From assembly GCA_051362555.1 (NCBI GenBank), contig CM120640.1, positions 8,184,001 through 8,248,000 on the forward strand: a stretch of 64,000 nucleotides of DNA, in the 5' to 3' direction. The notes beneath the pieces are model-generated. The model searched no databases. It was not told the origin of the DNA and saw only the letters and a program-made list of their open reading frames with translations. Below, in pieces: positions 1-44,800 of the stretch (the first letter of the stretch is position 1; each line of letters begins with the position of its first letter). The position numbers and the translations under genes were made by a program. Source of the DNA: Lingula anatina (taxonomy: Eukaryota > Animalia > Brachiopoda).

Positions 1-913
1 AAAGCAAGCAGAAGGAGTAGGAGTCAGTAAAACAGTTAGCAAGATTACGTTAATGACACCACGCAAGCAACTCGAGCACTTGTGCGGCCTCTTAAATACC
101 AGCTAGTTTTCATTGGCAGTTTTGAAGTCGGAGAAAACGTAGATGGACGGTTAAGCAGCGCGTGCGAGGAAAACAGAAGGGGAGACGGGGGTTAAAGTGG
201 AGCTGACTTCTATGAGCTTCGACAGATCGAACAAGTCAGTCGACCGGAACGCGCCTGGTTGGCCACACAATACATGTAACATCATATTAATCGTCGGCCG
301 TATTTCCTTAACTAACTAGAAGACTGCGTTCAAAAATCTAGTCCCTGTTTATTAGTCAAAAACCGCGACGCAGCACGAGTCGATGGTGCCATCTTCTTTA
401 ATTTGCTGTCATCTCGTCTAATTTTCATCTTTATGCAAATTCTGATTATCGCTAGTGCAGTCAGGCAGAGGAGCTGACTCGATACCAAGTCGAGGAACAA
501 AAGCGGTTTCCATTTAAGCTGAGAATGCATTGAGAGGCCGGCTCATAAACGGCAACGGGATATATATATATGACAACATCACGATAATTGAACAACTGAT
601 TTATACCATAGAGAAGATCATTAATTTTGGATTGTGCTTTCATGGACATAAGGCAGGCATTATTTTTGTTGGTGCAGAAAAATTCGGTAGGGTAAACAGG
701 TCCCAATAACTCACCGCTAATGGACTAGCAGCGTGAAGAAGCAATATTAATAGAGTTGCCGCTACTACCGGTTGATGTCTAGAGGGGAATTATTTGTTGT
801 GCAGACGGCTTCAGTGCTTTCGGGTCGAGGGAAGTCCACTGGACGACACTTCTAATCGAAAGTTTTGCCATCAGAGAAAAACAGAAGTTTTGAGAAGAAC
901 GACAAAAACCACT

Positions 914-3900
914 ATGTCTTCCGGATCAGAATCGGACGACAGCTGCAAGGAAACTTGTATGGACATATCAACATCGCCTTCATCGTCAGATTTTTATGAG
1001 CCCATCAAGAAACTAGCGAGCGTGCAGCTTTTTCCTCCAAGAAATCCGGAGAAACCTTTCACTCCGTTTTCCATTAGTGACATTCTAGCTCCAAGAGACA
1101 ATAAGCCATATATAACTAATAACAATAACAACAATAACAGTAGTAGCACCAACAATAACAATGTACATTTTGTCCGGCCGTGGGACACAAGTAGCACCAG
1201 TAGCAGTAATGGGCATATTGCTGAGGACGAGGAGGAAGATGAAGACATTGAGATAGACATTGTTGACAATGACAAGGCTATTTTAGACAGGGTGAAGCCA
1301 TCGCCATTAGATGCACTTTTCCAAATGACAAGTAAAACATTTGAGGGTCTCGATGCCCATGGCAATCTACGAGAAGGTGAGGTGGTTTTCATTTTCAGTA
1401 ATATATATATTTTTCGTATTTCATATTAATTCTAATTTGGCGTAATAGGACTTAATCTTCAAATCTTTGGGGATTAAAATCATATACAAACTTTTACTTT
1501 GTACTAAAAATTTTCAGAATCATATTATTTTCAATTTAACTTATTGTTCAGTTTTTTAGAAAAGCCTACATGTGGTTCACAGAAAAAGGTACTAAAAGCT
1601 AGTCATTGTTTAGTCATCATAATTTTGAAAAATGTTCTTCGCGGTCATTGGACATTCAAAGATAACATCAATGAATAAAGGAAATTCATTTTAGGCTTTT
1701 CCTATAAAAACTTACTGATGGTAAATTGTGAGAAAATACAAGCAACCACAATTTATTAAAAAATCTATTTAATAAAAATGTCAAATGTAAACAGGTAATT
1801 ATTATTTAGTAGGAAGGAAATGGTATTATTTGAATTTTTTCTCTGCATTGACTAAAAAGTGCTTTAAATAAGTAAGATTTTTAAATTTTTTTCTTATTAT
1901 TTTTAAAACTCGAGCGAAGATATTCTTTATTGCCAAATTGAAAGGGTGATATGAAAACCAAAATACACCTTTAAATACACCTATTAAAATTACATAAACT
2001 GAATTGTTCGAAATATGGTGGCACTTTGGGGCCAGGTAACATGTTGAACTTCTTTAATCAGCAAAGTCCTAAAAATAATTGCTTTTATCGCTAAAGACGT
2101 AAGACGCGAAAGATAACCATAACGAGCATTCTTTGTGCTTTACCTTAAGGTTTTGAAACAAAATTACCTTTTAATTTGGGATAATTATTACGCTATAAAT
2201 GAGGTCAGACGCTGTGTCATTTCATCCTTGTCGACCCTTCATCAATCTCTCCGTCCATGTTGTCCCGGGCCCGTCCAGGTGGCTGGCGTTCATCAATCAC
2301 CGCCGTCCCGCCCGTTCTCGGCTATTGCGCAAAGATCATGAGATAGCCGGTGCACCAAGACACTTATCTGATAGACTACTTAACACGTGCCTTCTGGTTT
2401 GTTCTGTGTTTTCTAATAGTGAAACCATTATGTTCTTGTCTCTAGCGTTTTACGTGTATCACACCGATCAGGATAATTGTAAGTTATTTGTTTAAATAAC
2501 CGCAAAAGTAGATATCAGTGAATATTAGATGTGAACGAAAATATTTTCCTGAACATTTCATGAAATATTAAACATGTTCTTTCTTAAAATATATTATTAT
2601 CTTTCTTATTGCCTCTCAAACGTAGCCGATGGTGAGAAAAATACGATTTTGTAATATTAAAAAATAAATCCTATTTAACAGTGTCATTATAACTTCCATA
2701 TTTCGATATGTCTTTATTTCTCATTTTCATTTTCTCAATCGTGTTGTCCTGGAAGCACCGTCACCGGGTCCATTTACCTGTCTGTGTCAGCGACGGAACC
2801 GCCATAGCCTGCACGATCCTCTTCCCAAATACTTGTGTCGGACCGAAAGTGACAAAGCATCAGTTATCTTCCATTAGTAAATCAAATTGCTTGGCGCAAC
2901 GACAGATTTGAATTTTAACTAGATCTGATCAAACGAACAAAACACATTTCTAAAAAATTCTCAGCAATCCGCCGTATTTATTCAATAATTGATGCGCCAA
3001 GTAATGGGAAGTGACAGTAAGACAAGGCAACTCTTTACTTCAGGCATGTGATTAGGAATTGCAATTGTTACTTCGTGATAGGAGCTCTAACAAAGCGTCT
3101 GACAAACACAAACAAGAACAGGAATATGGAGTCAAGTATGTTTCAGTTGAAAGTTTCACCATGAAAAAAAATTCATTTGAAATTTAATCAGTTTACAGCT
3201 TAATCAACAATCTTATTCATGTTGCAGAAGGTATTCTAATTTGCTTAACACTTATAGCTGTATCGTATGATATGCTCATTTTTTAACACGTTGGAAATTA
3301 CTCCCATGCGACACATTTGATTTTAATAAACTCTCAACGTTCTCGTTAAACTGTATTTCCAGAGACACAGGCTGTCCCGAAAATTCTGCCATTTGTGTAA
3401 GCATAAACGGACTATTCATCAAAACCTCTTAACAATACCTAAACGATTAGATAATCAAGATTACATCCCCATTATCATATATCTCTGAACTCCATCTCAT
3501 TTAATAGATAAGGTCCTTAAAGCTCGTTTGCTCGTTTACTCGTCATAGGAAGAAAAAATTACCTGGGCAATTAACGAGAAGAGACTGATACGGACAGATA
3601 GAGATCGAGCAATCTTTGAAGAATTTTCTGGTTGGCGCTGGGCGTCCTTCAGTGTGTACGATTTCATTAAGCTTACCCCAAAACAAGACATTTCCTGCAT
3701 TATTCTTACAGCCATTACACTGCATAGTTTTTTATCACTAACTGAACGAACAAAGGGGCTTCCTGTTAGGGCTGTCAGCATAGCTGCACTAATCAGGAAA
3801 AGGACTGCTTGAAAGCCGCCCTGTTTGCTGAAAATAATATTTCATCAACCTTCCAAATAGTCTTCACGCTATTTTTGACTATTACTTCGGCTAAATTATT

Positions 3901-6900
3901 CGGGCTTTTTGTCTGTCTCTTTATATATTATTATTTAATACTAGTTTTCTTTTCTGTCAATATTTTAGCATTTCTTTCTTGTTACTTCCATAATAAATGT
4001 TCCTGTGGCTCTCATTCTACACAAATTCATTGTAGGCGACGTTGATGAACTCAAGGTTTCTTTGTTAAAGTTTTTTATGGGCCTGGGTGAGAGTCGTGAC
4101 TGTCATACGCGTTCACAGCGTCGGTTCGCAGCCAGTGGGCATCACCTAACTGCCGGTTATGACAGCGGCGAGTTGCAGTTCACTCCTACTCGCCTGCTGA
4201 ATTATTCCAAGTTACTTACTTTATGTCTCTTTTCATCAACATCTTGTTTTTTTACGAGAGATAACAACGCATATTATTTCACAGCACGTGCCCCCTTTAT
4301 TCCTATACATACTTTGTACTTGATGTTGTGGTGCATGTTCATTTGAAAAAAAAATGAATAAATAGAGATGCGGAAGGCGGCATTGCTGCTTATTATTTCG
4401 GTTGGAAAAATATGGATGTGAGGTGCTTATTTTCAAAGTATTCTTAATATTTTTGTTCGGTAGCGTTGTATTTATAAAAAACGTACATAACAAATCCCAA
4501 ACTAACGCATCTTTTCAAGGAAAATCTAAGGGCGTCACGTAACGGGAGCGTCTTTCTCGCAGCGAATTCAGTATAGAAGCCATAATTTAATCATGATCAA
4601 TTACACATAAGAAGCGATAAAACCCTGTCTAGGGCAAGTGAAGATAGATATCAGTTTTACAACGAGTTCGTACCCCAGGCCCACGCAGCCACTGTATCTA
4701 CGATCTGACGCTACAAACGGACAAGCCCCTCATTAACAGCCTCATTCTGACCATTTTCGTCTACTTTATGCTTTCAATGGTCTTTTCTTGTGATTGGATG
4801 CGACGTTGATCGCAGGATGTTTAAGGTGTACACAGCTCCGCGGTCCTCCGGTAGCCTCGTAAATCTGCTCCCCGCTCACTTTATCATCCCGAAAGTAGCG
4901 GTAAACAAGCTGCTCACCTCTCACAGACCTGCCAGGCGCCAGCCACTTAAAGCCTGCTAAATTACCAAGTAGTCGTTAACAGATAATGATTTTATTAACT
5001 AATGGATAGAGTGTCAGGGGTTAAATTGATCACCTCTCTTTACATCCTCTTTCGCCCCCTGCTCCCCCCCCCCCCCCCCCCCCCCATCCCAAGCTCTGTC
5101 TCAGAGTTTCTAACTTTACCCATTTTGGCATTTTTGACTATTGATGGTCCTTACGCTTACTCTCTTTATATCTCTATCCCTTTCTATCCCTCTCTAAACC
5201 TCTTTCTCTCTCAACGCTTTTTCTCTTTCTCTCTCTCTCAATCGTTTATTCATTACCGATCGTTAACAGGGCACACCAAGAACCGTGTAGCTCTTATCTG
5301 CTGGGTTGTTATGAGAGTTTCTACAGGCATCACGAGAAAATAAATCCATTTAAGTAATCTTTTATTGCCTGATGTCGAGGCAAATTACCTAAATAATTAA
5401 GCGTAAAGGAGCTATAATGACCTACTTTAATATTTCATGAAGCTGAAATGGATCAGTTTCACACTCAGGAGCGGATCAGTCGAGCTGTTAATTACATTTC
5501 GTGTAATCATCTAATGGAATTCATTGTTTAGGATAGATAGACTGTGTCAGTTTCAAGTGGCTTATAGATTGAATGAAATCTCCTAAATAAGAATTACACT
5601 TAGAGAAGGGGTGATTAGCAATGGAAAAATGGATGTAATTCAATTAAGAGGTATTTTAGTGGGCTGATTATTCTTAAATGAGGTTTTGTGTTTCACTGCC
5701 CAAGCTAACTATGATATACTGCAATAATGCGTTAACCTTTCTCCCGGCTGCGCCTCAAATGCAGCATATAAAAGACTCGCTCGTGTTTGAACCGCAGAAT
5801 ACTTTGTCTTTATACCCCAAAATAAAAGATATAATTCTGTCAAACAATGGACATCATTTATTATACATTTTAATCGGCTGTTTATAAACTATTAAGACGT
5901 AACGTCATCAGTCCTTGTCGTCTGAACGGACTACTAATCGGACGTTCCTTGAACCCCCGCACACTGCGTGGTTGTTGAAGACGAGGAACGTTATCCGTGC
6001 CTTGTCATGATAAAAAGAAGATAAGATATTTTTTGAAAAATTAATTATTGTACTTGTGACAGTCTCATTCTTCACCTGTCTTCTTTTTGCATTCTTATCC
6101 TCGTATTCTCAAAAATGGAGCATATCAAAGGCTCTCTCGCCACTCTTGCGGACAAAGAGAAGATAGTAAGGCATTATTGTGAGTAGTAATGTTGAAGATT
6201 AGCGTTGGAGGATGCCATATTTTGTTATAACTTCTGTCATGCACAGCCCATCTATTTATAATTTAATTTGAATATAATATTCATTTTCCAAAAGACAAGT
6301 CCAAATCATACGCGTAATAACAGGAGCAAACATAACCTTGGGTAGTAGTAAAGGTTTCAAAGAGAAATGTATAGTGGCACGTACCTCAGCTACTAACAGC
6401 CCCCGTTAACAAGTTGAAAAAAAGCTGTTTGAGTGTAAGAGGTTAGGCTTGTTGTAGAGTATAGTTATCCCATCCAAATTATGATTTGTGCCTCAGTATT
6501 GCCACGCACTTCTTAGTGTCAGGCGCGGAGATAGCGGACGGCCATTTGCGGTAGGGGGAGATTGGAAAACTCTTTGATGGTAGCACCGTGTTGCCAATTG
6601 CGGAAACTTTAATTACAGGTCGAGTTCTACTCGCAATAAAATCTAACCTCTTTGAGTTCGTTCTCCCTGTTATCTAGACGGCACGGGGATCCCATTCCCT
6701 TTTAAGCGCGCTAAATTTCAAACATTTATCACAGATTAATTATTTAAATGTTCCAGAGGAAAATGAGCCGGAGCCATAAAGAACGATAAAAAGCGACAAG
6801 CAGCTGACTCCGTGAAATATAGGTTCAGATGTAATAATACTGTCAATTTTTAAAGTGAGATTATCGTCTTTCAAGTTAGTTGCTAAAAGCTTCGTTTTGG

Positions 6901-9310
6901 TGTTATTGCGAGTAGCTGGATGATTGGTTAAAGTGTCTGAATATTTCATCTTTGTTGGACAACGCTGCGCGTTTTTGTTCCCAGGACAAAACATTAGGTG
7001 CTTTTAAAGAAAATATATGAGCTAATAACCGAGAGAATCACAACCATTTATATTATTCAATTAAATTACCCCCATCAGACCTTGGGGCCTCCTAGCAGGT
7101 AAAAAGGATACTTGAAACAAAGCCAATTTAGCTTTATTGGGAACTATTTAAGGAGAATAATAGCTGACAAAGATTCATTGCCAAAAATTATGGCGCTATC
7201 TGAAAAACTAAATGCCATTGCAAAACATTAAAGAGTTTTGATAGTTAGTATATTTTATCTACCACTGTGTGCGTGAATAGTCCTCCCGACATAACATTTC
7301 CATTTAAATTTTGTACTTAACCTGCCAAAGAAGTTGTCTTTTCCTCATTATTTTTAAACATCACTATTATAAAACGGTTCCACTGACAACTAAAGTGTCT
7401 GGGCGGCCCATGAATCAAGTTTCTTTCATCTTTATATTTTGGGTTGAACGGTTAAACGTTCTTTTATTCCTGTTTTGCATGTCGTTAACTATCGGTCTTT
7501 TAACCTGTACAAATAGCACATGCTCTGCTCTCTGAAATCGCTACTCTACCTAGCACATAAAAGTGCATATTGTTGGGAAGCTATGATCAATAATAGTTGA
7601 GGGGGAAATGCACTGTTTAGTTGGCCAGCTTAACTTTACATGTCTAAGAAGCAAGGCCAACAACTTTCATGATCTTCATCAAGAAATAAAGTAATAATAT
7701 AAATCAAGCGTTAAATAACTCGATTGTTTTGTCGGCTGACAAGTCCAACAAATCATCTGTAACCTGACGCGATGAAGAACATTAAGAAGTGAAGGATGAC
7801 TGTTTCTCAAAATAACAAGATGTAGAAGAGCAACCAGTGGCAGCCGGTTCTGATACCTGTTAAACCTACATCATCATAAAACATGGTAGAGCTTGCGTGA
7901 TTAACTTGTAACGCTCATTTAGTGCTTTCTGTACCTTATATTTGACTTTTTCCGGGGTTTCGTTACATCTGGTTTACAAGTAATCATACATTCTTCCGGA
8001 ACTGAGGATAAACAAAGTACAGCAGATTCCCTTACATTATGATTACCGTATTTTTTCAGTACGCGTTTGTACATGGGTTACAATTATCTATATATTTCCA
8101 TACTTATAGAAAAAAAGTTTAAAGCATATGCTTTTTCACTGGCGGATACAGATACTAAAATAAGGAAGGGGCGGCACTTTTTAAACTCTCCTCCCCACCT
8201 TCTTTACTGCAAACATTAAAAAAAAAACCTTTGGATCCGCCTATGTTTATCATTGCTCCACTACATTCACCATATTTGAGAAGATGTTTTTATCTTTGTC
8301 TCTGAATGTCTGACAACACATTTGTGAATGAGAATTATGTGCTTAATTGAAAATGCAAGAAAGGTTTGATGTAACCTAGTCCTGAATGATGGAGACTCCT
8401 TTTTAATGAATCAATAAACGCTTAAATGAATAAAAGAAATAAAAAATTAAATAACCCTCTAATTAACTTATATAAAACTTGGCAAAGGGAAATTTATTTT
8501 ATTAAATTGATTTTTGGAACGATAAACAAAAAGAACTGGTATAAAAAAAATTCACACAAGCTACAAATGACAAGTATATAAAAATGGTCCTTTTCAGCAA
8601 AAAATAATAATAATAAATAAAAAGAGAAAAGCTCTTGCACCTCCGTTTCGGTACCATTAAGCAGGTCCAAATGCATACTGTAAATCAAATTTACTAAGCA
8701 AGACTGCTTGATTTCGAAAATAACTACACTGAAATGGCATTGTTATGCAGAGAAAATCGTTTTTTCCCTTGTTCTTTGTCACAATATGAGTTAATCATTA
8801 AGATTTATCAAACATGTCTGATATCACATAGTTTCTTCTTCTCTTGTTGTTATTATTTTTTTTCATTCATTTATTTATTTACATTTTGTTTGTTTCTTTT
8901 TAGAATCCTCTCGGCGGGACCATTTGTCGGTCTTCAGCAAGCAGCCAGCTTCAAAAAAGAGGAGAAAATCCCGCACTGCTTTCACAAATCAACAAATCTA
9001 TGAACTCGAAAAGAGATTTTTGTATCAAAAATACCTGACACCCGCTGACAGGGATGAGATTGCTCAAACTTTAGGACTTTCGAACGCACAAGTGATAACC
9101 TGGTTCCAGAACAGGAGGGCTAAACTGAAACGAGACCTCGAGGAACTGAAGGCCGACGTCACGGCCACAGCGAAAGTACACCCAGTGCACAAGGTGCTGA
9201 TGGAGCAAGTTGAAGACATGAATGCAAAACGGAACGAAATTCTAAAAAAGAAAGAAGAAGCGGCCAAAAGACTGGCCCTAAATATAACAAAAGACGATTT
9301 TAAGGAATAA
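914..9310 (+). CDS. Lbx: Ladybird (Lbx) NK-class homeobox transcription factor; join(914..1376,8904..9310), 289 aa
   Basis: Exon 1 has the eh1 motif TPFSISDIL, VRPWD and the Lbx-type SPLDALFQMTSKTFEGL, and ends at a phase-1 donor (G|GTGAGG, 1377). Exon 2 follows a polypyrimidine tract and TAG (8901-8903) in matching phase. It encodes KKRRKSRTAFTNQQIYELEKRFLYQKYLTPADRDEIAQTLGLSNAQVITWFQNRRAKLKR plus DLEELKADV, diagnostic of Lbx. AATAAA at 9724-9729. Confidence 0.96.
8137..8245. mobile_element. Degraded short MITE (GGCGGAT...ATCCGCC ends) in the Lbx intron
   Basis: Ends CACTGGCGGATACA and TGGATCCGCCTATG are imperfect inverted repeats of the same type as the element at 22942-23210. No clear target-site duplication (TSD). 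Confidence 0.5.
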
Positions 9311-21396: not shown

Positions 21397-23806
21397 TTAC
21401 TTCCTAGCTACAAGCACATACATATCCGTTGCATCAGAGAATTGTACTTCTGGTGTTTGGCAGCTATACCACTTTATATCCCTCAGTCCTGCCTTCTCCA
21501 CACCTTTGATGATGGTTTCCTTGCCTACACCAAGTGTCCTGAACCATACACCACCAATTTTGTATCTGGTTTCGTCGAGAACATTACCCAGAATGAGCAC
21601 TCCACCATCTTTCAAGAGTGATGAAACGTTTTTGATGACTTGTTCGAAATCGGTTCCATCTCCACATGCCTGTTCCAGACAAAAGAAGCTGGTGACGCAG
21701 TCGAATGGCTCACAAATCACAGGGTGAAGGGGGTTGTCCTTACGTACGTCGCATGCGTAAATGTCAGTCATTTTCTTGCGAAAGTTTTCTTTGTCGGTTT
21801 CCCACATGATCCTTGAAGTAGAAAAGAAACTGGCCGTAAGAATTTTTAAACGTTTTTTTTTTCAAGGTGGGATGTGAAGTACTTTAATTTGAAAGGATTA
21901 AGACATAAACTTTCATATTAGCAACAGATCGAGGCGTCTGATCCGAATTATATCGATTCTTACTCATCGCCCTCTAGTCCTGCAACGTGTTTAAAAGCTG
22001 GATCCCAGTCAAACACATCCATTTCACCATCTTTCCATTTTTGGAGGGCCTCTCTGTTGCTTGCTGTAAAATCACTGAATATCAGCTCATTGAACCAGTT
22101 GGCGGCACTAATATGATTATTAATTGATGGACCGCTGCCAAGGTCCAGTAGTCGTTTACCATGAATATGTCCTGTAATAAGATATGTATATAGTAAATTA
22201 ACATCGTTTTGGAAATTCAGTCTAATTATAAATGGTAAAGCGTATGGTTTCCATATGCATTTAACCTAAAGTAGGCCTTCCTTTCATTATTATTTAATTC
22301 CTTGGTAATCTAAAACAGAGTAAAGCGTTTTTTATGTAAAGAGGATAATAATTCTTTCTTACAGACCGTTCAGTGCATCTAGATCAAAATGACGAAAAGC
22401 GATGACGTATGCAAATGCCATATTATAATATAATGTGAATTCGACAAATTATTTGACTTGTCTGTTTTATTTCCCAATGTAATTGTGACGTTCGCTTTGT
22501 TGGAATATTTGATTCATTTTTATTTGCACCGTGTCTCTGCACATTTTTGTACCCTTTCCCCCAACTTCATAACTACGTACAATCCTATGGAATACTGAGA
22601 ACAATATTCTCCTGCATAGCTTATTTGGAACTAATAAACTATAGTTGCCGTTTGTGATCTCGAGTGCCGAATGATTACATGATTACTTGTCGCGAGCATC
22701 GCAAGGTAGCGGGAGTGCACCGTTACTGATTTGGCAAGCTTTTATCCGGGTTTCTCTCTGTTTACAAACAGTAAACATGTACTTTCAATATGGCAAAAGC
22801 AACAGCGGACTGCGCTTCCTAGCTTTCAGAGATTTCAGTCAAGAAAGACATTTTCTCTCTCCATTAAAACGAAAAGGATAGGATTTCTGATTTCCATACC
22901 AAGGCTTAGGCCTAAAGTTTCAAAACGTTTAAGTACACCAGCAGTGGCGGATTTAGAGGTGGGGGGCCCTGACCCTCCCCTCCCCCCCCTTCCTTCGATT
23001 TCTGGTTTCCTCTTGAAATTTGAATTTTGACTAGCTGAATCAAAGTTCTAAACCATACCAAATGGCACCGTTCCCCCTCTAAAATAACAATATTTTCGGG
23101 GCCCTTCAGCGGGCCCCAAACCCCACGCCAAGTGGGCACGGGTGGCGGTCGGCATCGCATCCGCGGACCCCCCCCCCCCCCCCCTTCAAATAATCCTGGA
23201 TCCGCCCCTGCACCAGTCTAGTCATATTTCTGTAAGACTGTGCAGACTGTTATAAATAATCTGCCTGGCTATGTATATCTGTTCCGCGCCATTCTGACTC
23301 AGAGCAACAGCGTGGTGACACACTGCTTCGCTCAGTTCAAGCACCCTAAAGCCGCTCACCTGTACATGCAAAATTTCAAAATCTACTTTGCAGCCGTTGG
23401 GGACCAGCCCAAAGATGCATATAACGAAACACAGCAGTGCTATAGACAAGGTACATGTAGTTGGTCAGTTGGTTCTGACATACCTGACTACACATTTCTC
23501 TGTTCACATACTCATGTGAGACAAAAGTTTAAAAAATCAATGCATTTTTACCAAGACATGCTCTATAAAATGAAATGTTCCATATTAAATGTCAAGTCTG
23601 TGTAAACAGTTCAATTACGCAATGCTATAAAACTGTAGCTGCACCTTAAAGGAGTAGTTTATTACTTTAACCACTATCAGACAATTTAGGAGAAGAGGGT
23701 TATCGTTTCTCAAGTCTTACCAAGGAAGTGTATGAGAAGACCTTCTCAAACATCTCCTTGGTCTACAGGGTAACTAACCCTATTTCTCTGTTACACAGTG
23801 TACCCC

Positions 23807-33939: not shown

Positions 33940-34122
33940 TGTGCTACGTCAGACCGTTGCAACCAATCAGCGCTAGCGACTTAAACCCATGCCTAGACTC
34001 TTGACAGATTGAGCCTATTTGTGTTTAATAGTTGATTCATGACTGAGCTGTGGCAGTGACTGTTTAACTATATCTAGCTTCAGTACGAGAGCGATTGTAG
34101 GCAGTGAATACACAGCACAAAG
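33940..34122 (+). promoter_or_regulatory. Putative Tlx proximal promoter / 5' UTR
   Basis: CCAAT box (33963-33967), TGACAG (34002-34007), TGATTCATGA (34033-34042) and an Inr-like TCAGT (~34080) within 180 bp of the ATG. Motif inference only. Confidence 0.4.
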
Positions 34123-37100
34123 ATGACTGACATCGGCACAAAACAGGAGCAACAATCTCCAAGGCCTCCGAGTACGAGAAGCTCAGGGACAGAGGAGCGT
34201 GGGGGCCCCGCTGGACAGTTGTCCTTCAGCATTAGCAAGATTCTGGGAGAATCTCACGTTACACGCCATAGCCGCGAACTCTCTCCCTCGCCAGCCACCC
34301 GAACACAGCCCGGTTCTCCGGCTCCTCCGGGTCCCAGTCTCCACGCCTGTCTACCCAACACCTTGCCGGGGTACGTGCCGACGTCTCTGCCACCCTTCTT
34401 CAGTGGTGTTCCGTGTCCGTCCCCTGGGTGTGGGTGTGGGGGTGTGGTAGTCAATGGCATTATCAAAGTACCTGCACATAGGCCGCCTGCAATCCCAATG
34501 GGTCACCTCCCTCCGTCTCTTCAGTTTCCCTGGATGGAAGCTCGAAAAGACCGACTTACAAGTAAGTTCAACTTTTCACAAACAAGTGCAAATTGCTTTC
34601 TTAACTCCAGCAAGTGTTGCACAAAGGGTATCAAACTGAAACATCGCCTAATAGGTAATACCGTTTTATCACAAGATTTTACAGGGATTGCGATATTGTA
34701 TTACAGCATAATATGTGGTTTTAGACGGTTCTTATTATGAACTTGTGTCGCAAAACAGCATGCTTTTTGTTGTTATCGTATTGCAATCAGATTTAAAACA
34801 TTTTAAAAGTGATAATTTGGCAAGAAGACTTCCTGAAAAATTCCTACCAACCACGAATTTATAGCTTGTCAGAGTATTCACCCACAGAGAAAAAAAAAGA
34901 CGCATTCAAATTATAACACTTTTTTATTTTATTTAATGCCCTTAGCGATACTAGTTGGAGAATTTAAAGAATAAGATAAAAGACTCACACACGGCAATGG
35001 AAATTTGTCAAACATTATGCCAGCGTCTTAACATATGCTATAGGCTGAATTAATTTTCATTAAAATTGGCGTTTAATGGAGTTTTAGACAATATTGTTTT
35101 TAACTTTCTCAAAGTTGTATGTCGTGAGAAGATTTGTATTTTTGCCATTCCATTTAGGCAATCAATACACGATGTCGAAACCTGATGAAAACATTAATTT
35201 AAGCCGATGGTATCGCGACAGACCTCAAATAAACAGGGACATGTGAAAATCGGTTTCCCAAGACTTGGAACAGCGAAGGTTAAATGTATCAAGCGCTCTC
35301 TTTTAATTGAATTTTGAGCGATATTTGTTTGGGGAACTAATTATTCGAACTGGTGTGTCTGGTGAAATTCGGCCTAGAATGTATGGGGTATAAATAAACT
35401 TGATTCTATAAACTGTTTGTTCTGTCCAGTGGGCCTATTTGTACACTGCATAAACGAGTGTCTAGGCAATGTCTCATAGATTATGGAGAAGTTATCGTAG
35501 ATTACAAGTACACGTCGTCCACGGGCTGCCTCGGCATTCTCAGCATAGTCGTACATGTAGACAGCTGCTACGTTTTTACCACTTGACGAAAAATGTCCAA
35601 CAGACAATATCATTGAACAACTTGTCATAAACTGTGGTCTCCAGGCTTTTTCAATTCATCGTCTTTGCAACAGACTGGTACAACGCGTGGCAGGAATGTG
35701 GGATCATCTACATACGCCGCGCTATTTTTGCTACTCGTGTTCTCGGGCAATTCTTGTTTGAAATGGAATAATATTAGTATAATAATATAAACACTCAATC
35801 TATTATTGCAACATTACCGCATTGCTTCTTGGAAATATTAGGTAGAATAACGTCTCGGGCAATTTTGTCGTAAAACATGCATTTACAAATTCGCTCTGCT
35901 TCAAGGCATCTCTTTTAATAACATTCTTTAAGTGCAAAGCTATTTGAATATGTTGGTCAAATAAAAGTCAGAGCTGTGGACAGTGTGAAATTAATAAAAA
36001 CTGTGAATTAAGCCACAGCTATTTTAGACAATATCTGATAGAAGATACTTCAGAAGTGGCTTTACGCACTGACCACTTTTACACCGTGTACACACCAACT
36101 GGAGGCTGCACGCACTGCCCGCGGAAGTAAATCAGTTTAGTATTACGCTGAAGGTGACAGGTCATTTCAATTATTAAAGACAAAAGACGCTAACTGCAAA
36201 CTGACCATCTGCTGCGTCACCTCTGAGGAGAGCCTGGCGAGTTGAACTTAGGTGACGCTTGCCGGCGATGTGCCAACTAAACCAGCGAGCTGGCCGGTCG
36301 ACTGGTCAGTAACTGAAAATGCCTCGATCGTGGCTTTGTCGTGTGGCATTATCCTTTTATAAAGAACTCTATCGCACTGTGAGAAACCGGACTCAACGGT
36401 AGCGGCAATAGTTTATAGAGTCGACACGGGAATCTGAAATTAAGTCGTTTTTAATATTAATTTTTTCCGCTGTAATGATGAAATGATGAAACGGATACCC
36501 GCAGATGTAAAGATGACACTTTGTTAATAGACGTTTATTTTATTTAAAGTTCATACAAAATGCGTTTTTAATAGCTGTTGTGTCGACATGAGTACGAGAG
36601 TATGTAACATTCTTTGCACGTAACGTTGACACTCATCAGTTGTTGAATTGATTATACTTAGAGGGTTTGAAGGAAACGGGAAATAAGAGTGCATTTTAAT
36701 ATTTTATGTTTTGTTCGTGGTCTTGGTATTATATTGAATGTGTTAACAATAAAACCTTTGTGATAAAAAGAAGGCTTGCCCTCATAAAAAAGTAAGTCCC
36801 ACCTACTTGAATCCATATTGACAAAATAATTTCTGCCGGGTTTTTATCCTTAAATTTAGATAGTTCCAAGTATTCAGTTACTGACAAAATTTAAATGAGA
36901 AATTGTATTCTATCAGTCAAAAACGTGTAGAATCTTATCAACTAAAAACGTGTACAAGCTGTATACAAGCTGGCTGTTTAAAAACTCTGTGTTTATCTCA
37001 GGTTCAAATAAAACCCGCCGAATTTCATATCTAGAAATATACATGTAGTTGGTGCTGACTGAGAACTTCATTAATTTTTTTAAACAAAACTAGACATTCC

Positions 37101-38460
37101 CCAACTTATAATAAAATTGATATAGAAATGCAGTTTTCACGAGTATCTTTCATAACGACTTTCTGTAATATGCATGATCCCTTGCCGGCGTAAATTTGTA
37201 TTCTTCATCAGTAAATGAATTGCATAAAGATTTTTCAAAACAATTCCATTGAAGAATATCCCTTCTTTCAGTTAAAACTGCTGATCTGGTCAATATTTGA
37301 TAAATCGTTTATCAACTCATAGTTGACATATATTAATAAATGCCATTGAACTTTTAATTTGTGAATTTGCTACTTTTACGGTAATTTTTTATGACAGCAA
37401 ATGTATACATTTCCTCGCCTGACCTAAACCTTCAACAGTAGCTTGCTAAATGCACATATCTCGCTCAATTGACAATTGTAATATATCAAACTCTATTTGT
37501 TTTACATCCGATACAAACAATTGCTACAAATTATCCACTTACATCAATGTGTTAATGTAACAAATATATCATGTGTGTCTCTCATCTCACATTTTTCCTG
37601 GATGAATTTTTCTCTTAATTTCCCGCAAACTGAGTGAAAGAAACTAATTTTAGGAGTGCATCAAATGCTTGCTATGATTATTCACTTTTCTAGTCGAGGT
37701 AAAATGATCATTTGTCGATTTATCCCACATCCAATCGTAAATGCCATAATTAAGGGCTCCATCTGTTACGCCTGTTGTACATAATTGAGTCTTTTTGATA
37801 GCAAAGTGTGATTCTAAATTATCCTTTTTCGTGCAGCCCTACTATTTTGGCGTTGTTTTTCCTGCAAATGGGCAGATGATTACATTTAATAATGCTTACA
37901 TACCTGCATAAATTTACGCTCAAATATCTAATAATTTATTAACGGAAAGTACACATTATGTGTTCTGCTCGATCGCTGTTTTCAATTAAAATGCTTTTCA
38001 CAGTTATGAAATGGAATAATAAATACAACTAGCCGTTAACTATTAAAGCAAAAGATAAAAATACTAAGTTAAAAATAAATGATATACTAATAATAGAATT
38101 ATCTCATATGCAATACTTAAGGAAAAGAACGGTCTTGCTGAATTTGCAAATGTTGTCAACTATTGAAAAATTTAGCATCACAATTTATCGAAGTATTTTT
38201 TGCCGTTTTTCCAGTCACCAGACGCATTGGGCACCCTTACCAAAACCGTACTCCTCCTAAAAGGAAGAAACCACGGACGTCATTCTCGAGACTACAGATT
38301 ATCGAGTTAGAAAAACGCTTCCACAGACAAAAGTACTTGGCCTCAGCAGAACGGTCGGCCCTGGCTAAAGCTCTTAAGATGACGGACGCACAAGTTAAAA
38401 CTTGGTTCCAAAACAGACGGACAAAATGGAGGTAGGGCAAAGAAAAAAAAATGCACCCTC

Positions 38461-38525
<65 letters not shown>

Positions 38526-41500
38526 CGTGCGTGTGTGTGTTAATCTAAAAAAACATTGTTTAACGCCATTTATAGCAAATTATAACACTACTCCAAAATT
38601 AATCTCAAAATAAGATATTAAATTGAGGTATCAAGTCACGCACATGAAAATATTAAAAAACATACAGGAAGAGATATGCCAGTCTGCCCGCCATATTAGT
38701 GTTTAATCTGAAATAACGTAAAGCACCCCGCTGCTTTGTGTGGAGTTCGATGCCGTTTTAAAGTAATAAAGACCGATCTCATCGTTTAACGCATAAATTT
38801 CTCTCTTTAAAAGCATTAATAGTCCAGCTCTCGGTGCGCGCTTTCCCAGTGGAGTTCCATTCACTCGGTCGTGGGTGCGGGCACCTTGAATAGGTGTGGG
38901 GCTGGGGTGATGGGTGAAGTGTCATTAGCACCCTCTTTACACGCAGGATATAATTAATACACATAAATTTGATTAGTAAGGCAGTCAAAAAAAGTAGAGA
39001 TAAATCACAAGAAAAGCAAATGAGAACATTTCCTTAAGTTGTTCAATAAATCAATTGTGGCACTTTTTTGCGACAGTGTCGTTCATAGTACCTGCCCCAG
39101 GGCAGAACGCTTCTTAGAAATGTAAATTGTTCTGTTGACAAGAGTGATAGGGAAAGGAAAGGTGACAGAACCATTTGTTCCTACGGTTGACATTGTTCTT
39201 TCATTTTTCATGAATATAATAGACTTGTCAAATTAAAGAAATTATTATTTGTAATGCACATAAATCACACAGAGCCTACAAACACTGGTTTTATGGTGCA
39301 TGCGAAAAGATACTGCATGTTGGCTTTAGCAATGGTTTTCAGGATGGCTTAACTTATTCGGGGAAATATTTGATGAAACTCAACTGACTGACTTTAAAAC
39401 AACGTGAAACGGTTTTAACAGAATTATCTAGCGTTAAAAAAGGGCACTCTGGATTTTTTGTTGTTGTTTTATTCAGGTGTTGGTTGCCGTCTTAAGTGAT
39501 TGCAGTCAGTTTTCTGGGAATGTTTTAAAGCCTACCCAGAAGTGCACGGTTTGTTTGATCGAATTTAGTCAAGACTTGAAGCAATGGGACTTAACTTGGA
39601 ACAATCTTATTTCTGAAGTGAAAACGATAGTTAAAACAAAGATTCTCGTGGGTCTCGCTTATTGTCTGTAAATTAATTTAGAAACCATTTTGCTTTTAAA
39701 TTACTCTTAATTAAGTGCGCCGAGTCTGAGAACAATGAAAAATTTATTAGCTGTGCAGCAAAGTCCGGATATTCATGGAAAGAAAGCGCCGTTACACGAA
39801 TATAGTGGGTGGAAAATATACGCTATTCTAACTCCAAACAGACTAGGCAGAGAGAAATGAATTTTCTTTCTTTTTTTCATTACTACTGTGTATGTTTTCG
39901 CCGATATATAAAACACGATGTTTGGCGTTTCCAGTTAGAATTTACTGGCTGGTGAGTGCTTAGATTTCCTTAATGTGCTACTACACAGTAATTCGTCTGT
40001 AGCTGCGAGACGAAAAGGTGTTTCCTTATTGGTAGTTTTCACATCAGCTTGGGTTCCAACATTTATCATGGCTTTATCGCCCCGTATTTACCGATGATCT
40101 ACTCTGAAGGACTACATACGTTACGTTTGGATTACTACTCGTAGCGAGAGTTCAGAAGCTGTCGATATTAATCATTCGTTCAATTGGCGCCTTGACGACC
40201 CATGAAAAAATTCTCGAACACTTGTCTTCATTCACGTTTTGCTCGTGACAGATGAAAGTATGTAATATTTAATACGCTAATGGCCTTTTGCTTAAATCAC
40301 CTTGATGCCAAAATGATTAGATCAGGTAAATGTGCGGCTTTTACAGCTTAGCTTTTAAGGCATCGCCCAAAGAAAATCACAATAATATCTTTTCAAACTA
40401 CTTTAACTGCCTGTAGATGACCTCGTACTACTTCTTGATATCTGGTCATGGGATGCAAAATAATTGTTTCGTTTGCCAAATTGCATTCGTCAAATACAGG
40501 TCTACTCTGTTTTCAAAATAGCCACTACCTTTCTTCTAAATAGCAAATTACCCGGTCATAACTGAATCAGCAATGGCCACAACACATAAGAGAAATATCT
40601 GACATTGAATATTATAGAATCGCCATATTTGTATTTGTTTTGAAATGGTTACATCATCTGACATTTATCGGTGAATTTATAGGTCTTCACAAAGGTAAAT
40701 CACGATGAATAAAAAGATATTTATATTTAAAAGAAAAAAGTGTGCTAATTAAATCCACTGTGGCAGAGTGCTCACTAAAGTCATAGTAGACTACGGTGAT
40801 GATTAGTCAAAGAACGATTGATATTATCATATCTAATCGTTCCCTTATTTCCTCTCGACCGTCACATCTAGTTTTTCATTTGCGATTACCGTTATTTCCT
40901 GCCTTCGATATGTGTGCATCAGAAGTACCTACAAAAAAGAACACTAATATATTGCTATCATTATTTCATTAAAGAGGTGTCACTGCGGAAATCCAACTGG
41001 AATGAAAATTGATAGGCTATCCGCGAAATAGCCGCTTCTGGGACGCTCGAAATGACTAATGAATGGATTCTGCTAAACAGTTGAAATATTGTCGGAGTAA
41101 GAGTGTTTGTCTTTTAAAAAGCCGTTTGAGTATTTTATGAGGCACAAAGTCCCGTTTCATTATCCTTTCAAAATCTAATTCAGGCGTCAAAGCCGTCCCA
41201 TGGGAACTCGGAAATACTGCTTTCGTTGGATTTGAATAGCTATTCAATTATTCAGAAGCGCTTCTTTTCCTGAGTTAGAATCATGACGCGTTTATTTCTG
41301 AATTAGAAATCAACACATGGTGTAGAAACGAACCATTTGAATGAAATAACTGTCGGTAAAATAAACATTAGATAAAAGAAGGTTGCATCTGCGGTGCACG
41401 CCCCATATATTTGTATTATTTTGAAATCGTGTTTTTTTAGGTTTAGAGTAAGCCATTTGTTCTTTTTATACTTGTAGGCGACAAACCAACGAGGAAAGAG

Positions 41501-41839
41501 ATTCAGAGCATCATGTAGTCAATATGTACATGACGAACCAAAATTTCATAATTTAGATATTATGCAGGACGGTGAAATTTGGAACTCTATTTGTAAACAA
41601 GGACTTTCCTCTGCTCTTCCAGGAGACAAACTGCAGAAGAGAGGGAGGCGGAACGACAAGCAGCAAACCGCTTCATGATGAGTCTCCAGGCAGAAGCATC
41701 AAAGACCATATATGACACGCGGGACCCCCTCGTTCTTAGCAACGCGTCTCTGCATGCTCTGCAAAATCTGCAGCCCTGGGCCGAGACAGAAAACAGCGAA
41801 GACAGGCCCAACTATCACGACTCTCCATCTTTGGTTTAA
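34123..41839 (+). CDS. Tlx: Tlx (Hox11/C15) NK-class homeobox transcription factor; join(34123..34561,38215..38431,41623..41839), 290 aa
   Basis: Exon 1: eh1 [19 protein letters not shown], hexapeptide FPWME, KDRL. Exon 2: [22 protein letters not shown]...[13 protein letters not shown] (Thr47). Exon 3: [16 protein letters not shown]...[11 protein letters not shown]. All junctions are GT-AG with consistent phases (1, 2). AATAAA at 42156-42161. Confidence 0.97.
38464..38540. repeat. Compound (CT)n-(TG)n microsatellite near the 5' end of Tlx intron 2
   Basis: Read directly; begins about 32 nt after the exon 2 donor. Confidence 0.95.
41478..41556 (+). CDS. Tlx: Putative alternative Tlx terminal coding exon (diverged duplicate of the exon 3 start): (R)[25 protein letters not shown]
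   Basis: Acceptor TTCTTTTTATACTTGTAG|G is in the same phase 2 as canonical exon 3; the peptide aligns without gaps to [19 protein letters not shown]. Confidence 0.7.
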
Positions 41840-44800
41840 ATATGTAGGCGCTGACAGCGTTCTGGCGGTGACAATATACTATATCTTTATCAGAGTAATA
41901 AGGTAACAGATGATATTGCAGAGAACACACATGAGACTATTCTATCGATAGACGGGGATTTATAAGTGTGGATGGCCGGGTGTATATTGTAAATTTAGTT
42001 ATAGGATTGAAATTGATTTTCCTTGCATAAACAGAGGCGAGACTTATGACCTAGTGCAACGGGCAATTCATGACATTTAGCTGTATAAAAGTGAGAGAGA
42101 CAAAAAATATTTATATAAAAATAACTTTAATTTTTGGTTTCTTTTTTCATTTTTTAATAAAATGTTGCCTTCTTGTGTATTTTTATTTTTATTTTTTTTC
42201 TTTGTGTGTGTGTGTGACTTTTCAGTCCGTTTTCAATATCCATAAAGCTGTTGTTACTTTAAAAGAAATTGCAGTTTTAGGGTTTGAAATCTTAATCTAA
42301 TATAATTACATCCGGTTAACAATCTGTTGTAGTGAGATTATCTTCATTGATTGTAAAATTAACAACCTCAAAAAAAGTTTGTGAACGATATATCGCGTGT
42401 TGCGGACGCCCATAAAAAGCACTGTTGAACTTCTAAAGCGAAGTGACTTTTTCCATTAATTTGAACAAATGGCGCTTCCTCGGTCACAACAAAGAGGAGG
42501 GCAACACCTTTTGCGACATTGCTTATGACCTTATCTTTAGGCACAGAGTTCTAATGAGGAGGCACTTGATGCAAATACTGAATATTCCAATTGTTCGAAC
42601 GACACGTTTGAGATATATTTTAATACATGATTAATATTCTTTTATTTTAGTTCATTTTAACCAAGCTTAAAATATTTAGTTTTGCTTTAAAAATATATAA
42701 AAAAAAGAATGATCATTTTCTCATATTGAGATTATGACTATTAGCAATGCGCCCCTAACAGAGGTCCTGGTATTTAGTTGCCGTTATGAACCTTTCTTTT
42801 TAAAAAATAATAGATACACTGGTACTGAATGAAGGATTAGCTTGAATAAATACGGAAATGTTATTAAAAACATTATATAATAATGTGCATCTGTATTATA
42901 CTCTGAAGTTCAACGAAACAGATGGAATTAAATATTTAATTCTTTCACACTAGACGACTTTACAAAACAAATTAAAAGAATAAAATGGATTGATCGAACA
43001 AGACTGTAGTCAAGTCAGTGAAATAAAATATACATAATCGCAGCAAATCAAGCTTGTGGCCAGGTTTTAGAAGCAAAGCTCAGAAGCTGCACAAGGCCTC
43101 GTCCTGATCGCATTGTTAACTCTTCTGTGCAGCGCAACGACAAAGCAACCCGAAGCTTGACTCAGAGAGGAAACATAACATCAATATAATGTACATGGGA
43201 AGTATGCGTTAGTGATGTGAACTAAATCTTTAATATTCTATCAACCCACTCTGAAAAAGAATGAAGATTAAACGTTGCTATCAATTAATCTTATTGGCGA
43301 TGATTTAGACCATCAGCCAACCTAATGGACAATTAATCTGACTTTTGTTTTAACAGTAGATGAATTTGTGCGCATGGTTGCACCTGCTGAGAAATAAGGC
43401 TCTGGGTTTTTCGACGACCTGAGGGATAGACTTTTTTCAATATTATCCATTAGAACACCGATCTTAGGTTATTAGCTGAAAACGTACAAGCCCTAACGAT
43501 TTGTGGTAAGCTTCTCATTCCTCTAGGGACAAGATATTGCAAACGCATCATTTATTCAAACACTGCCATGCACAATAGAATAAATGGTGGTAGTCAAACA
43601 ATACATAATCATCATACAAGGGTCAGTTCATTTGAAAAGTGATTATCGGTGAATTAATTGCGGTAATTTGTGGCTGGGTAGCGATTGCAGATCTATTAAG
43701 TGAACAACCAATGTAATTACCAAACAGAGAGTATTGGAAAACGCTTTTGAGCCTGAAGTTTAATCAAGTGATAAGCGCCGTGAAACAGACCAGATCCAGT
43801 GCTAATATATGGAGAATTCAATTGCTACTGTACCTTACACTAATTCAACATCAGAGTTATTTCATTAAGGTTTTATAGGATCGGTGAAAGCATTGAGTTT
43901 ATGAGAGATTTCTAAAAATCCATGATTCTACCTTGGTCGCCTTTACTTTGTCTAAGCTGCACTGTCGGTGCAAGGATATTGCATTTTCAATAAACACGCT
44001 GTACACTTCAGATACTTAGAATTGACTTATTGCTATAAATAATGTACTTAGCTTTCACCTTTTACGCTGTCCAGTTGCGTCAACGGACTAAGAGAAACTA
44101 CTAGGCTTATGTGTGAAATACGTCTTTCGCTGTGTAGCTTCAGTTACGGCAGAGCATGATAAGTAAGTATCTCTTCATTTATGTTTTTGTGAAATCCTGA
44201 AATGAACCTAAACGCATTTTCTTGTTTTTAGGGCCATAAAAATTATTATTCAAATAATTACGCTGCGATTTTACAATCACTGACGAATGACTTTGTAATA
44301 AATAGTCTGCGAAAAAATTACATTCGATTTTACATCATTATTTGAGGTAGTCATGATTTCTGGGTTATAGATAATTGAATTATTTATCCGATGTTAACTT
44401 AATAAGGTGCCTGTTCTTTTTTTAAACAGATTCAACATGGCAGGAGGAAATTTACGATTGTGATAAAGACAAATATTGACTAGCGATGTGTGAATCAAGC
44501 AGAGATTTGATGATTAAGTTTTTTGTTGACCTGATATAATACAACTTTTATTTCCCTCAGCGTTTATGTCGACATCACGCAGGCCGCTTCGCATGAAAGT
44601 ACAATTAAACGAAGACATGTTTGCCCTGTTAACAAATAGATTTACTTGTGGAATTTTTGTATCAAGGGAAATTTAGAAAAATCTCCAACATTCAATATTC
44701 ATGCATCTCAAAACTACGTTGCATCAACTAAAACGTATTAAACTTCATTCGACGTAAGGAGCATATTCAAAGTATGCCTTCCAATGGGACGTGTCACCAC

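What the first reader, a model, noticed from the sequence alone, without database searches (positions are those of the whole stretch)
41455..41839. Duplicated, selectively constrained alternative terminal exon predicts a truncated Tlx isoform
Seen: 145 nt upstream of canonical exon 3 is a second strong acceptor (TTGTTCTTTTTATACTTGTAG|G) in the same phase 2, encoding [25 protein letters not shown] versus canonical [22 protein letters not shown]. Nine of the first 18 full codons give identical residues, and 7 of those 9 use a different synonymous codon (CGA/AGA, ACC/ACT, GAG/GAA, GAA/GAG, AGA/AGG, GAG/GAA, AAT/AAC); several other changes are conservative (D/E, S/A, V/A, Y/F). That pattern indicates an old duplication kept by protein-level selection. 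Both versions complete homeodomain residues 57-60 (RRQT), but the 244-aa form lacks the conserved [12 protein letters not shown]-terminal motif of the 290-aa form. Its stop would lie in the last exon, so it should escape EJC-dependent NMD. Inference: a splice switch giving two Tlx proteins with the same DNA-binding domain and different C-terminal output. I know of no description of this in Tlx genes.
Basis: partly seen in the sequence, partly recalled or inferred. Interest (0 to 1): 0.8.

Follow-up and report, generated by a model that had tools for sequence, protein, structure and literature searches.

The report
Brachiopod Tlx with two spliced tails
In the lamp shell Lingula, RNA of the Tlx homeobox gene is spliced about equally often to either of two look-alike starts of its last exon, which is predicted to give a normal protein and a shorter one with the same DNA-binding domain but a rewritten tail that likely changes how it works with partner proteins.

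Summary
Real and spliced. The window is the Lbx–Tlx region of Lingula (the exons match RefSeq L. anatina Tlx but for one residue). RNA reads join exon 2 to the upstream acceptor (41478) 38 times and to the canonical one (41623) 50 times in three runs of one study. The short form is already an automatic RefSeq model (XP_013378783.1, isoform X2, 244 aa). One correction: this is an alternative 3' splice site, not a separate terminal exon. The upstream transcript runs on through the canonical exon, which becomes 3' UTR. The copy keeps codon positions 1–2 (26/36) while position 3 is saturated (5/18); neutral decay gives this in at most 0.9% of simulations, and 145 nt show no differences in individuals about 6% diverged at silent sites. 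The replaced stretch is the helix after the homeodomain, present in the Clawless–Aristaless–DNA crystal construct, so the short form likely binds the same sites with altered partner cooperativity or output (untested). No orthologous copy was found outside Lingula, but no other brachiopod was reachable. Tick and abalone Tlx models alter the same module by unrelated splices. Tissue regulation and protein are not shown.

The parts
34123..34561 (+). Tlx exon 1, coding part (eh1-like motif, FPWM-type motif); shared by both forms
   Evidence: joint 34561>38215 in 21, 33 and 23 reads; matches RefSeq X1/X2 except V108M
38215..38431 (+). Tlx exon 2: RRIGHPY arm and homeodomain to the second base of the Arg57 codon; shared donor GT at 38432
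   Evidence: Pfam PF00046 E 3.2e-21; joints
41455..41477 (+). upstream acceptor (T-rich tract and TAG)
   Evidence: sequence; 14, 10 and 14 junction reads; no read depth 41200-41445 in X7
41478..41556 (+). exon 3A coding part: diverged copy of the start of exon 3, 25 codons and stop; ends the 244-aa form
   Evidence: identical to the tail of XP_013378783.1
41557..41622 (+). 66-nt spacer: 3' UTR in the short form, intron end with the canonical acceptor in the long form
   Evidence: depth about 15 across it in X7 and no poly(A) hexamer; no differences in RNA reads
41623..41839 (+). exon 3B coding part: canonical Tlx tail (post-homeodomain helix, [14 protein letters not shown] motif); 3' UTR in the short form
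   Evidence: 12, 22 and 16 junction reads; 906 homologous proteins; identical to XP_013378782.1
41840..42183 (+). shared 3' UTR with AATAAA at 42156; end approximate (reads are cut at a repeat 42169-42221)
   Evidence: depth table; hexamer scan

Best explanation
Lingula Tlx has two competing acceptors at the end of intron 2, both used in RNA; the upstream one opens a diverged tandem copy of the start of exon 3 and is predicted to give a 244-aa protein that likely binds the same DNA sites as the 290-aa form but with altered partner cooperativity and transcriptional output. Shown: both splices, read-through of the upstream transcript into the canonical exon, identical N-terminus, arm and 60-residue homeodomain. 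Inferred: origin by a short tandem duplication across the intron-exon border; selection on the copy's peptide. Inferred mechanism: the copy keeps R-Q-T and the acidic residues E5, E6, D8, E10 that continue helix 3, changes the Ala/Arg/Gln face of the extension (R11H, Q12H, A13V, A14V, R16M) and stops before the [13 protein letters not shown] motif. It would keep eh1 (Groucho/TLE) repression and solo DNA binding, lose or weaken C-terminal activation and Aristaless/Arx-type cooperative binding, and so compete with the long form.
For: Junction reads 38 vs 50 in X7-X9, 43% (Wilson 33-54%). Codon positions 1+2 26/36, position 3 5/18; pN 0.29, pS 0.97. With the canonical exon frozen at protein level and the copy neutral, the position contrast is reached in at most 0.9% of simulations for codons 1-18, 0.5% for codons 4-18 (homeodomain end removed) and 4.9% for all 25 codons. 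RNA individuals carry 15 listed fixed coding differences from the window (12 silent, pS 0.058), none in 41478-41622; neutral expectation 8.3 over the 145 nt (P 2e-4) and 3.6 replacement changes in 3A (P 0.03). The RefSeq assembly has the same 25 residues. [quoted passage not shown] AlphaFold models continue helix 3 to residue 250 (long) and 243 (short). [quoted passage not shown] D8, H11, H12 and Y17 of the copy also occur in Trichinella Tlx.
Against: No protein-level evidence. No sign of regulation: three runs of one study, P=0.20; of the other four runs laid, three had 0 reads and one had 2. No orthologue: 0 of 72 metagenome Tlx exon-3 loci have an upstream copy (many are short and none is shown to be a brachiopod); only the Lingula protein has this tail among the best 120 of 1007 hits and among 2 hits in 1.84 billion representatives. 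The copy changes 8 residues at positions that are about 85% or more invariant in 157 Tlx tails (positions 4, 8, 9, 11, 12, 13, 14, 16), which also fits partial decay. The 18-codon window was chosen after seeing the match; the 25-codon test is only borderline. Against the neighbouring exon and UTR (also constrained) the lack of differences is weak (Fisher P 0.08). The short-form model was folded on an alignment of canonical tails and may over-predict helix; the copy's helix propensity is poorer (0.49 vs 0.28, scale values recalled). That the C-terminal extension contacts Aristaless is recalled from Miyazono 2010, which I could not read; PMC10336111 credits the N-terminal arm, which both forms keep.
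Confidence: 0.55

Rival explanations
1. Tolerated relic: the duplicated acceptor could not be lost or was never selected against, and the copy's peptide is constrained only enough to be harmless (a weak or near-equivalent Tlx), with no separate job.
For: Constant ratio near 1:1; similarity fades after codon 18-20; no orthologue found; 23 of 158 Tlx proteins lack the distal motif by my pattern, mostly Hymenoptera, Trichinella and a schistosome, so it can be dispensable.
Against: A single AG change would remove a useless acceptor, yet it has lasted until silent sites saturated (pS 0.97) and is unchanged in three haplotype sets; constraint reaches beyond the homeodomain end (codons 4-18).
Confidence: 0.27
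2. RNA-level dosage control: the upstream splice mainly diverts about 40% of transcripts away from full-length Tlx or lengthens the 3' UTR (about 620 vs 340 nt); the conservation reflects splicing elements rather than a working protein.
For: The 66-nt non-coding spacer is as invariant as the coding copy (0 differences, 3.8 expected); the short transcript carries the whole canonical exon as UTR.
Against: The codon-position contrast points to protein-level selection; the spacer holds the canonical branch point and acceptor, which explains part of its conservation; the short transcript is about as abundant as the long one.
Confidence: 0.15
3. Chance similarity, dead pseudo-exon or assembly artefact.
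For: The match is short (18 codons).
Against: Score 49 vs next 20 among 7033 frames; 38 junction reads in three runs; same peptide in an independent RefSeq record; reads run unbroken across both copies.
Confidence: 0.02

Closest known systems
RefSeq XP_013378783.1 (Lingula anatina Tlx isoform X2) and XP_013378782.1 (X1)
   Same: The same two proteins, 244 and 290 aa, one residue (V108M) from the window.
   Different: Database names only; the duplication origin, constraint and usage ratio are not part of what the tools showed for them.
Tandem exon duplication-derived C-terminal substitutions (Martinez Gomez et al., PMC8373072 and PMC9741552; passages read)
   Same: Two homologous coding stretches in tandem, one or the other translated, homologous C-termini; 77 of 236 human events are C-terminal.
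   Different: There C-terminal events are put down to alternative poly(A); here two acceptors compete over one poly(A) region, the copy is partial, and the unused copy stays in the mRNA as UTR. The word 'homeobox' does not occur in either main text.
Drosophila Clawless/C15 with Aristaless (PDB 3A01; PMC5402979 passages; Miyazono 2010 not read)
   Same: The crystallised Clawless piece ends with the 20 residues that exon 3A replaces; C15 binds DNA with or without Al.
   Different: No such splice form was seen for C15; contact residues could not be mapped here; no Lingula Arx/Alx partner was examined.
Hard-tick Tlx isoform X1 and abalone Tlx isoform X2 (RefSeq/GenBank models)
   Same: They alter the same module: a 15-residue insert exactly between KWR and RQTAEE in 7 tick species of 5 genera; a 220-aa form that keeps the helix and drops the distal motif in 2 Haliotis species.
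   Different: No sequence likeness to exon 3A, so likely independent origins; only protein models were seen, no DNA or reads.

Membership tests
Tlx/HOX11 (NKL homeobox) | Homeodomain of Tlx type with Thr at position 47 | tested here: met
   PF00046 E 3.2e-21; 92-99% identity to the 25 best Tlx exon-2 matches; VKTWFQNRR; Thr47 named as family feature in PMC2949800 (passage)
Tlx/HOX11 (NKL homeobox) | RRIGHPY N-terminal arm and EH1 motif | tested here: met
   both present in both forms; features as defined in PMC10336111 (passages)
Tlx/HOX11 (NKL homeobox) | Conserved post-homeodomain helix and distal [10 protein letters not shown] motif (common, not universal) | tested here: met
   met by the 290-aa form; the 244-aa form has a diverged helix and no motif; motif in 135 of 158 proteins
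Tandem exon duplication-derived substitution | Two homologous coding regions in tandem in one gene | tested here: met
   9 of 18 identical residues, score 49 vs background 20
Tandem exon duplication-derived substitution | Transcripts code for one or the other region, not both | tested here: met
   38 and 50 junction reads, no joint between the copies; the stop at 41554 leaves the second copy untranslated
Tandem exon duplication-derived substitution | C-terminal type made by alternative polyadenylation of separate last exons | tested here: not met
   continuous depth 41487-42140, no end pile-up, no poly(A) hexamer before 41873: alternative 3' splice site instead
Tandem exon duplication-derived substitution | Both proteins are made | not testable with these tools
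   no proteomic or ribosome data
Tandem exon duplication-derived substitution | Deep cross-species conservation (typical, not required) | tested here: inconclusive
   conserved across Lingula haplotypes; absent from 72 distant loci; no second brachiopod available
Aristaless-cooperating Tlx (Clawless type) | Cooperative DNA binding with a paired-type homeodomain | not testable with these tools

The most novel reading that the evidence does not exclude
The helix that follows the Tlx homeodomain is a splice-controlled partner switch invented at least three times in bilaterians: by a duplicated, retuned exon start in Lingula, a 15-residue insert at the same junction across hard ticks, and an early exit in abalones. 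Lingula offers a natural pair of proteins that differ only in that helix and the tail, one working with Aristaless/Arx-type partners and one without.
Probability: 0.3. Interest if true: 0.75.

Novelty: new variant of a known kind. Interest (0 to 1): 0.5.

Why it matters
Tlx is among the most conserved bilaterian homeobox proteins just past the homeodomain, and the job of that extension and of the [10 protein letters not shown] motif is poorly mapped in what I could read. A near 1:1 pair of natural isoforms that differ only there makes that job directly testable. It is also a clean case of a homologous C-terminal swap made by competing acceptors after a partial exon duplication, in a homeobox gene. 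If the tick and abalone models are real, the same module has been put under splicing control repeatedly. Limits: one genus so far, the isoform is already in RefSeq by name, and function is untested.

Tried and rejected
No whole genome was held, so no paralogue or Arx/Alx search. Run finder: no RNA holder listed by index; nine raw-read runs added by species label; 7 of 9 were laid (X1, X2, X4, X5, X7, X8, X9); X1, X2, X4 gave 0 reads and X5 2 reads, which is no test of splicing. Separate terminal exon with own poly(A): rejected. Intron retention as the source of 3A reads: rejected, depth 0 over 41200-41445 in X7. A second splice from 3A back into 3B (possible GT at 41572): no joint listed. Neutral decay of the copy beside a frozen canonical exon: rejected at about 1% (18 codons) or 5% (25 codons). 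Idea that the 66-nt spacer and canonical acceptor are decayed exon-3 codons: best alignments fall on diagonals 142-143, near the 145 offset, but scores are not significant (shuffle P 0.04-0.26, 0.14; acceptor-like controls 0.08); left as a lead. Orthologue searches empty; P0204 is a tandem-repeat protein and a chance hit. Pfam has no family for either tail. No complex prediction was sent: no partner sequence was at hand and the known pair forms on DNA. Earlier scan notes: none found. Literature searches (listings and abstract starts) showed no paper on Tlx exon-3 duplication or Lingula Tlx isoforms; most subscription journals are not in the library and no supplements were read.

Full report
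Setting. The window holds an Lbx gene, an NNMT-family methyltransferase gene on the minus strand and a three-exon Tlx gene. A search with Tlx exon 1 returned one protein among 52 candidates, Lingula anatina 'T-cell leukemia homeobox protein 3 isoform X2', XP_013378783.1, 244 aa, whose cluster mate is isoform X1, XP_013378782.1, 290 aa. Both match the window's exons except V108M.

Observation. The upstream acceptor (AG 41476-41477) and the canonical one (AG 41621-41622) are 145 nt apart and in the same phase as the donor after 38431. Nine of the first 18 codons give the same residue, seven through another codon; identity is 14/18, 12/18 and 5/18 at codon positions 1, 2 and 3. Among 7033 AG-started frames in the window the copy scores 49 against the canonical exon and the next best 20.

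Splicing. Seven of nine listed RNA runs were laid. Three runs of one study hold the gene. Joints 38431>41478 number 14, 10 and 14; joints 38431>41623 number 12, 22 and 16; the exon 1-2 joint 21, 33 and 23. The upstream share is 38 of 88, 43% (33-54%), with no significant difference between runs (P=0.20). X1, X2 and X4 gave no reads and X5 two, so they test nothing. In X7 depth is 0 over 41200-41445, about 15 from 41487 to 41609 and about 25-32 from 41651 to 41978, with no joint inside and no pile of ends; the first poly(A)-like hexamer lies at 41873 and AATAAA at 42156. The upstream transcript therefore reads through the canonical exon: this is an alternative 3' splice site with a shared 3' end. 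The early stop has no junction after it and the form is abundant, so strong NMD is unlikely (inference). The libraries give both mate directions, so strand comes from the GT..AG ends.

Constraint. pN is 0.29 and pS 0.97 over 18 codons. Because the canonical tail is nearly frozen in bilaterians, I simulated a frozen canonical exon with free silent change beside a neutrally decaying copy. The observed contrast between positions 1-2 and 3 was reached in at most 0.9% of runs (codons 1-18), 0.5% (codons 4-18, homeodomain end removed), 4.9% (codons 1-25) and 3.4% (codons 4-25), maximised over seven divergence levels (joint-tail versions agree). The 18-codon limit was chosen after the fact, so the 25-codon figure is the cautious one. 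Independently, the sequenced animals differ from the window at 15 listed fixed coding sites (12 silent, 3 replacement; 31 weaker rows were not shown) but at none in 41478-41622 (complete list for X7). At the silent rate of 0.058, a neutral 145 nt would carry 8.3 differences (P 2e-4) and the copy 3.6 replacements (P 0.03). Against the neighbouring exon and UTR the contrast is weak (Fisher P 0.08). Constraint is thus fairly well supported; it does not by itself prove a separate function.

What changes in the protein. Both forms keep the eh1-like motif, the FPWM-type motif, the RRIGHPY arm and all 60 homeodomain residues. The copy keeps R1, Q2, T3, E5, E6, R7, E10, N15, M18 and changes eight positions that are about 85% or more invariant among 157 Tlx tails; D8, H11, H12 and Y17 also occur in Trichinella Tlx (one lineage). 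It stops before the [13 protein letters not shown] motif, present in 135 of 158 Tlx proteins. AlphaFold extends helix 3 to residue 250 in the long form and 243 in the short one, with a low-confidence helix at 260-266 in the long form; the short model used canonical tails as alignment and may be biased. The first 20 residues of the canonical exon match the end of PDB chain 3a01_A, the Clawless piece in the Aristaless-Clawless-DNA crystal. I recall from Miyazono et al. 2010 that this C-terminal extension contacts Aristaless; the paper is not held, so this is unverified. [quoted passage not shown]

Mechanism. Most likely (0.55) a short tandem duplication across the intron-exon border gave two acceptors; the downstream copy kept the ancestral tail and the upstream copy was kept as a short, retuned helix. 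The short protein would occupy the same sites, keep eh1 repression, and differ in partner cooperativity and activation, competing with the long form. The splices are shown; duplication and selection are inferred from sequence; protein, partner effect and regulation are untested. Rivals: a tolerated relic (0.27), RNA-level dosage control (0.15), artefact (0.02).

Spread. No other protein with this tail appeared. Cluster look-ups for 20 chosen Tlx proteins gave isoform pairs; of 10 pairs aligned, 7 differ in the linker before the homeodomain, 1 near the N-terminus and 2 in the post-homeodomain module: hard ticks insert 15 residues exactly at the exon 2-3 junction (7 species, 5 genera) and two Haliotis species have a 220-aa form lacking the distal motif. 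These are protein models, unrelated in sequence to exon 3A, and the pairs were picked by me, not at random.

Comparison and verdict. [quoted passage not shown] The case meets homology and either-or coding but not the alternative-poly(A) route those papers give for C-terminal events, so I file it as a new variant of that kind. Ten literature searches (listings only, plus passages of PMC6118893, and reference-list passages of PMC11832328, PMC10723402 and PMC12102336) showed no account of it; subscription journals and supplements were not seen. The finding is real, well expressed and constrained, already present in RefSeq by name, so far confined to Lingula, and functionally untested: interest 0.5.

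Noticed in passing
P0072, P0075, P0208, P0209, P0213, P0219, P0220 (tick proteins): Hard-tick Tlx models in 7 species of 5 genera carry a conserved 15-residue insert exactly between KWR and RQTAEE, with acidic and proline residues that would break helix 3 from its extension.
   Followed up: partly
P0223, P0226 (Haliotis rufescens, H. cracherodii): Isoform X2 (220 aa) keeps the post-homeodomain helix but leaves before the [10 protein letters not shown] motif, like the Lingula short form by another route.
   Followed up: partly
window 776-9307 (+), 21400-22265 (-), 34123-41839 (+): Lbx and Tlx are linked in tandem (NK-cluster pair, recalled) with an NNMT/PNMT/TEMT-family methyltransferase gene between them on the other strand.
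   Followed up: no
window 41557-41622: The spacer and canonical acceptor align weakly with canonical exon codons on diagonals 142-143 and are GC-richer (39%) than the other two acceptors (26%, 29%); the canonical acceptor may be exon-derived and the upstream one the original. Not significant.
   Followed up: partly
window 38432-41261: Intron 2 has low, patchy read depth (up to about 6 in X9 at 39253-39539) while intron 1 has almost none; the donor reads straight into TAG, so retention would end the protein at Arg57.
   Followed up: no
window 34099-34111 and whole Tlx gene: The RNA individuals lack 9 nt of the 5' UTR and differ at about 6% of silent sites, so they are a distinct population or cryptic species from the window, which itself nearly equals RefSeq at protein level.
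   Followed up: partly
L059-L061, L069: In these loci the exon-3 frame leaves the Tlx consensus after about 22-30 codons, suggesting an extra intron inside exon 3 in some animals.
   Followed up: no
P0274, P0263, P0055, P0183, P0300, P0228, P0232 and mates: Seven of 10 Tlx isoform pairs aligned vary in the linker between the PW motif and the N-terminal arm, at the exon 1-2 junction region.
   Followed up: no
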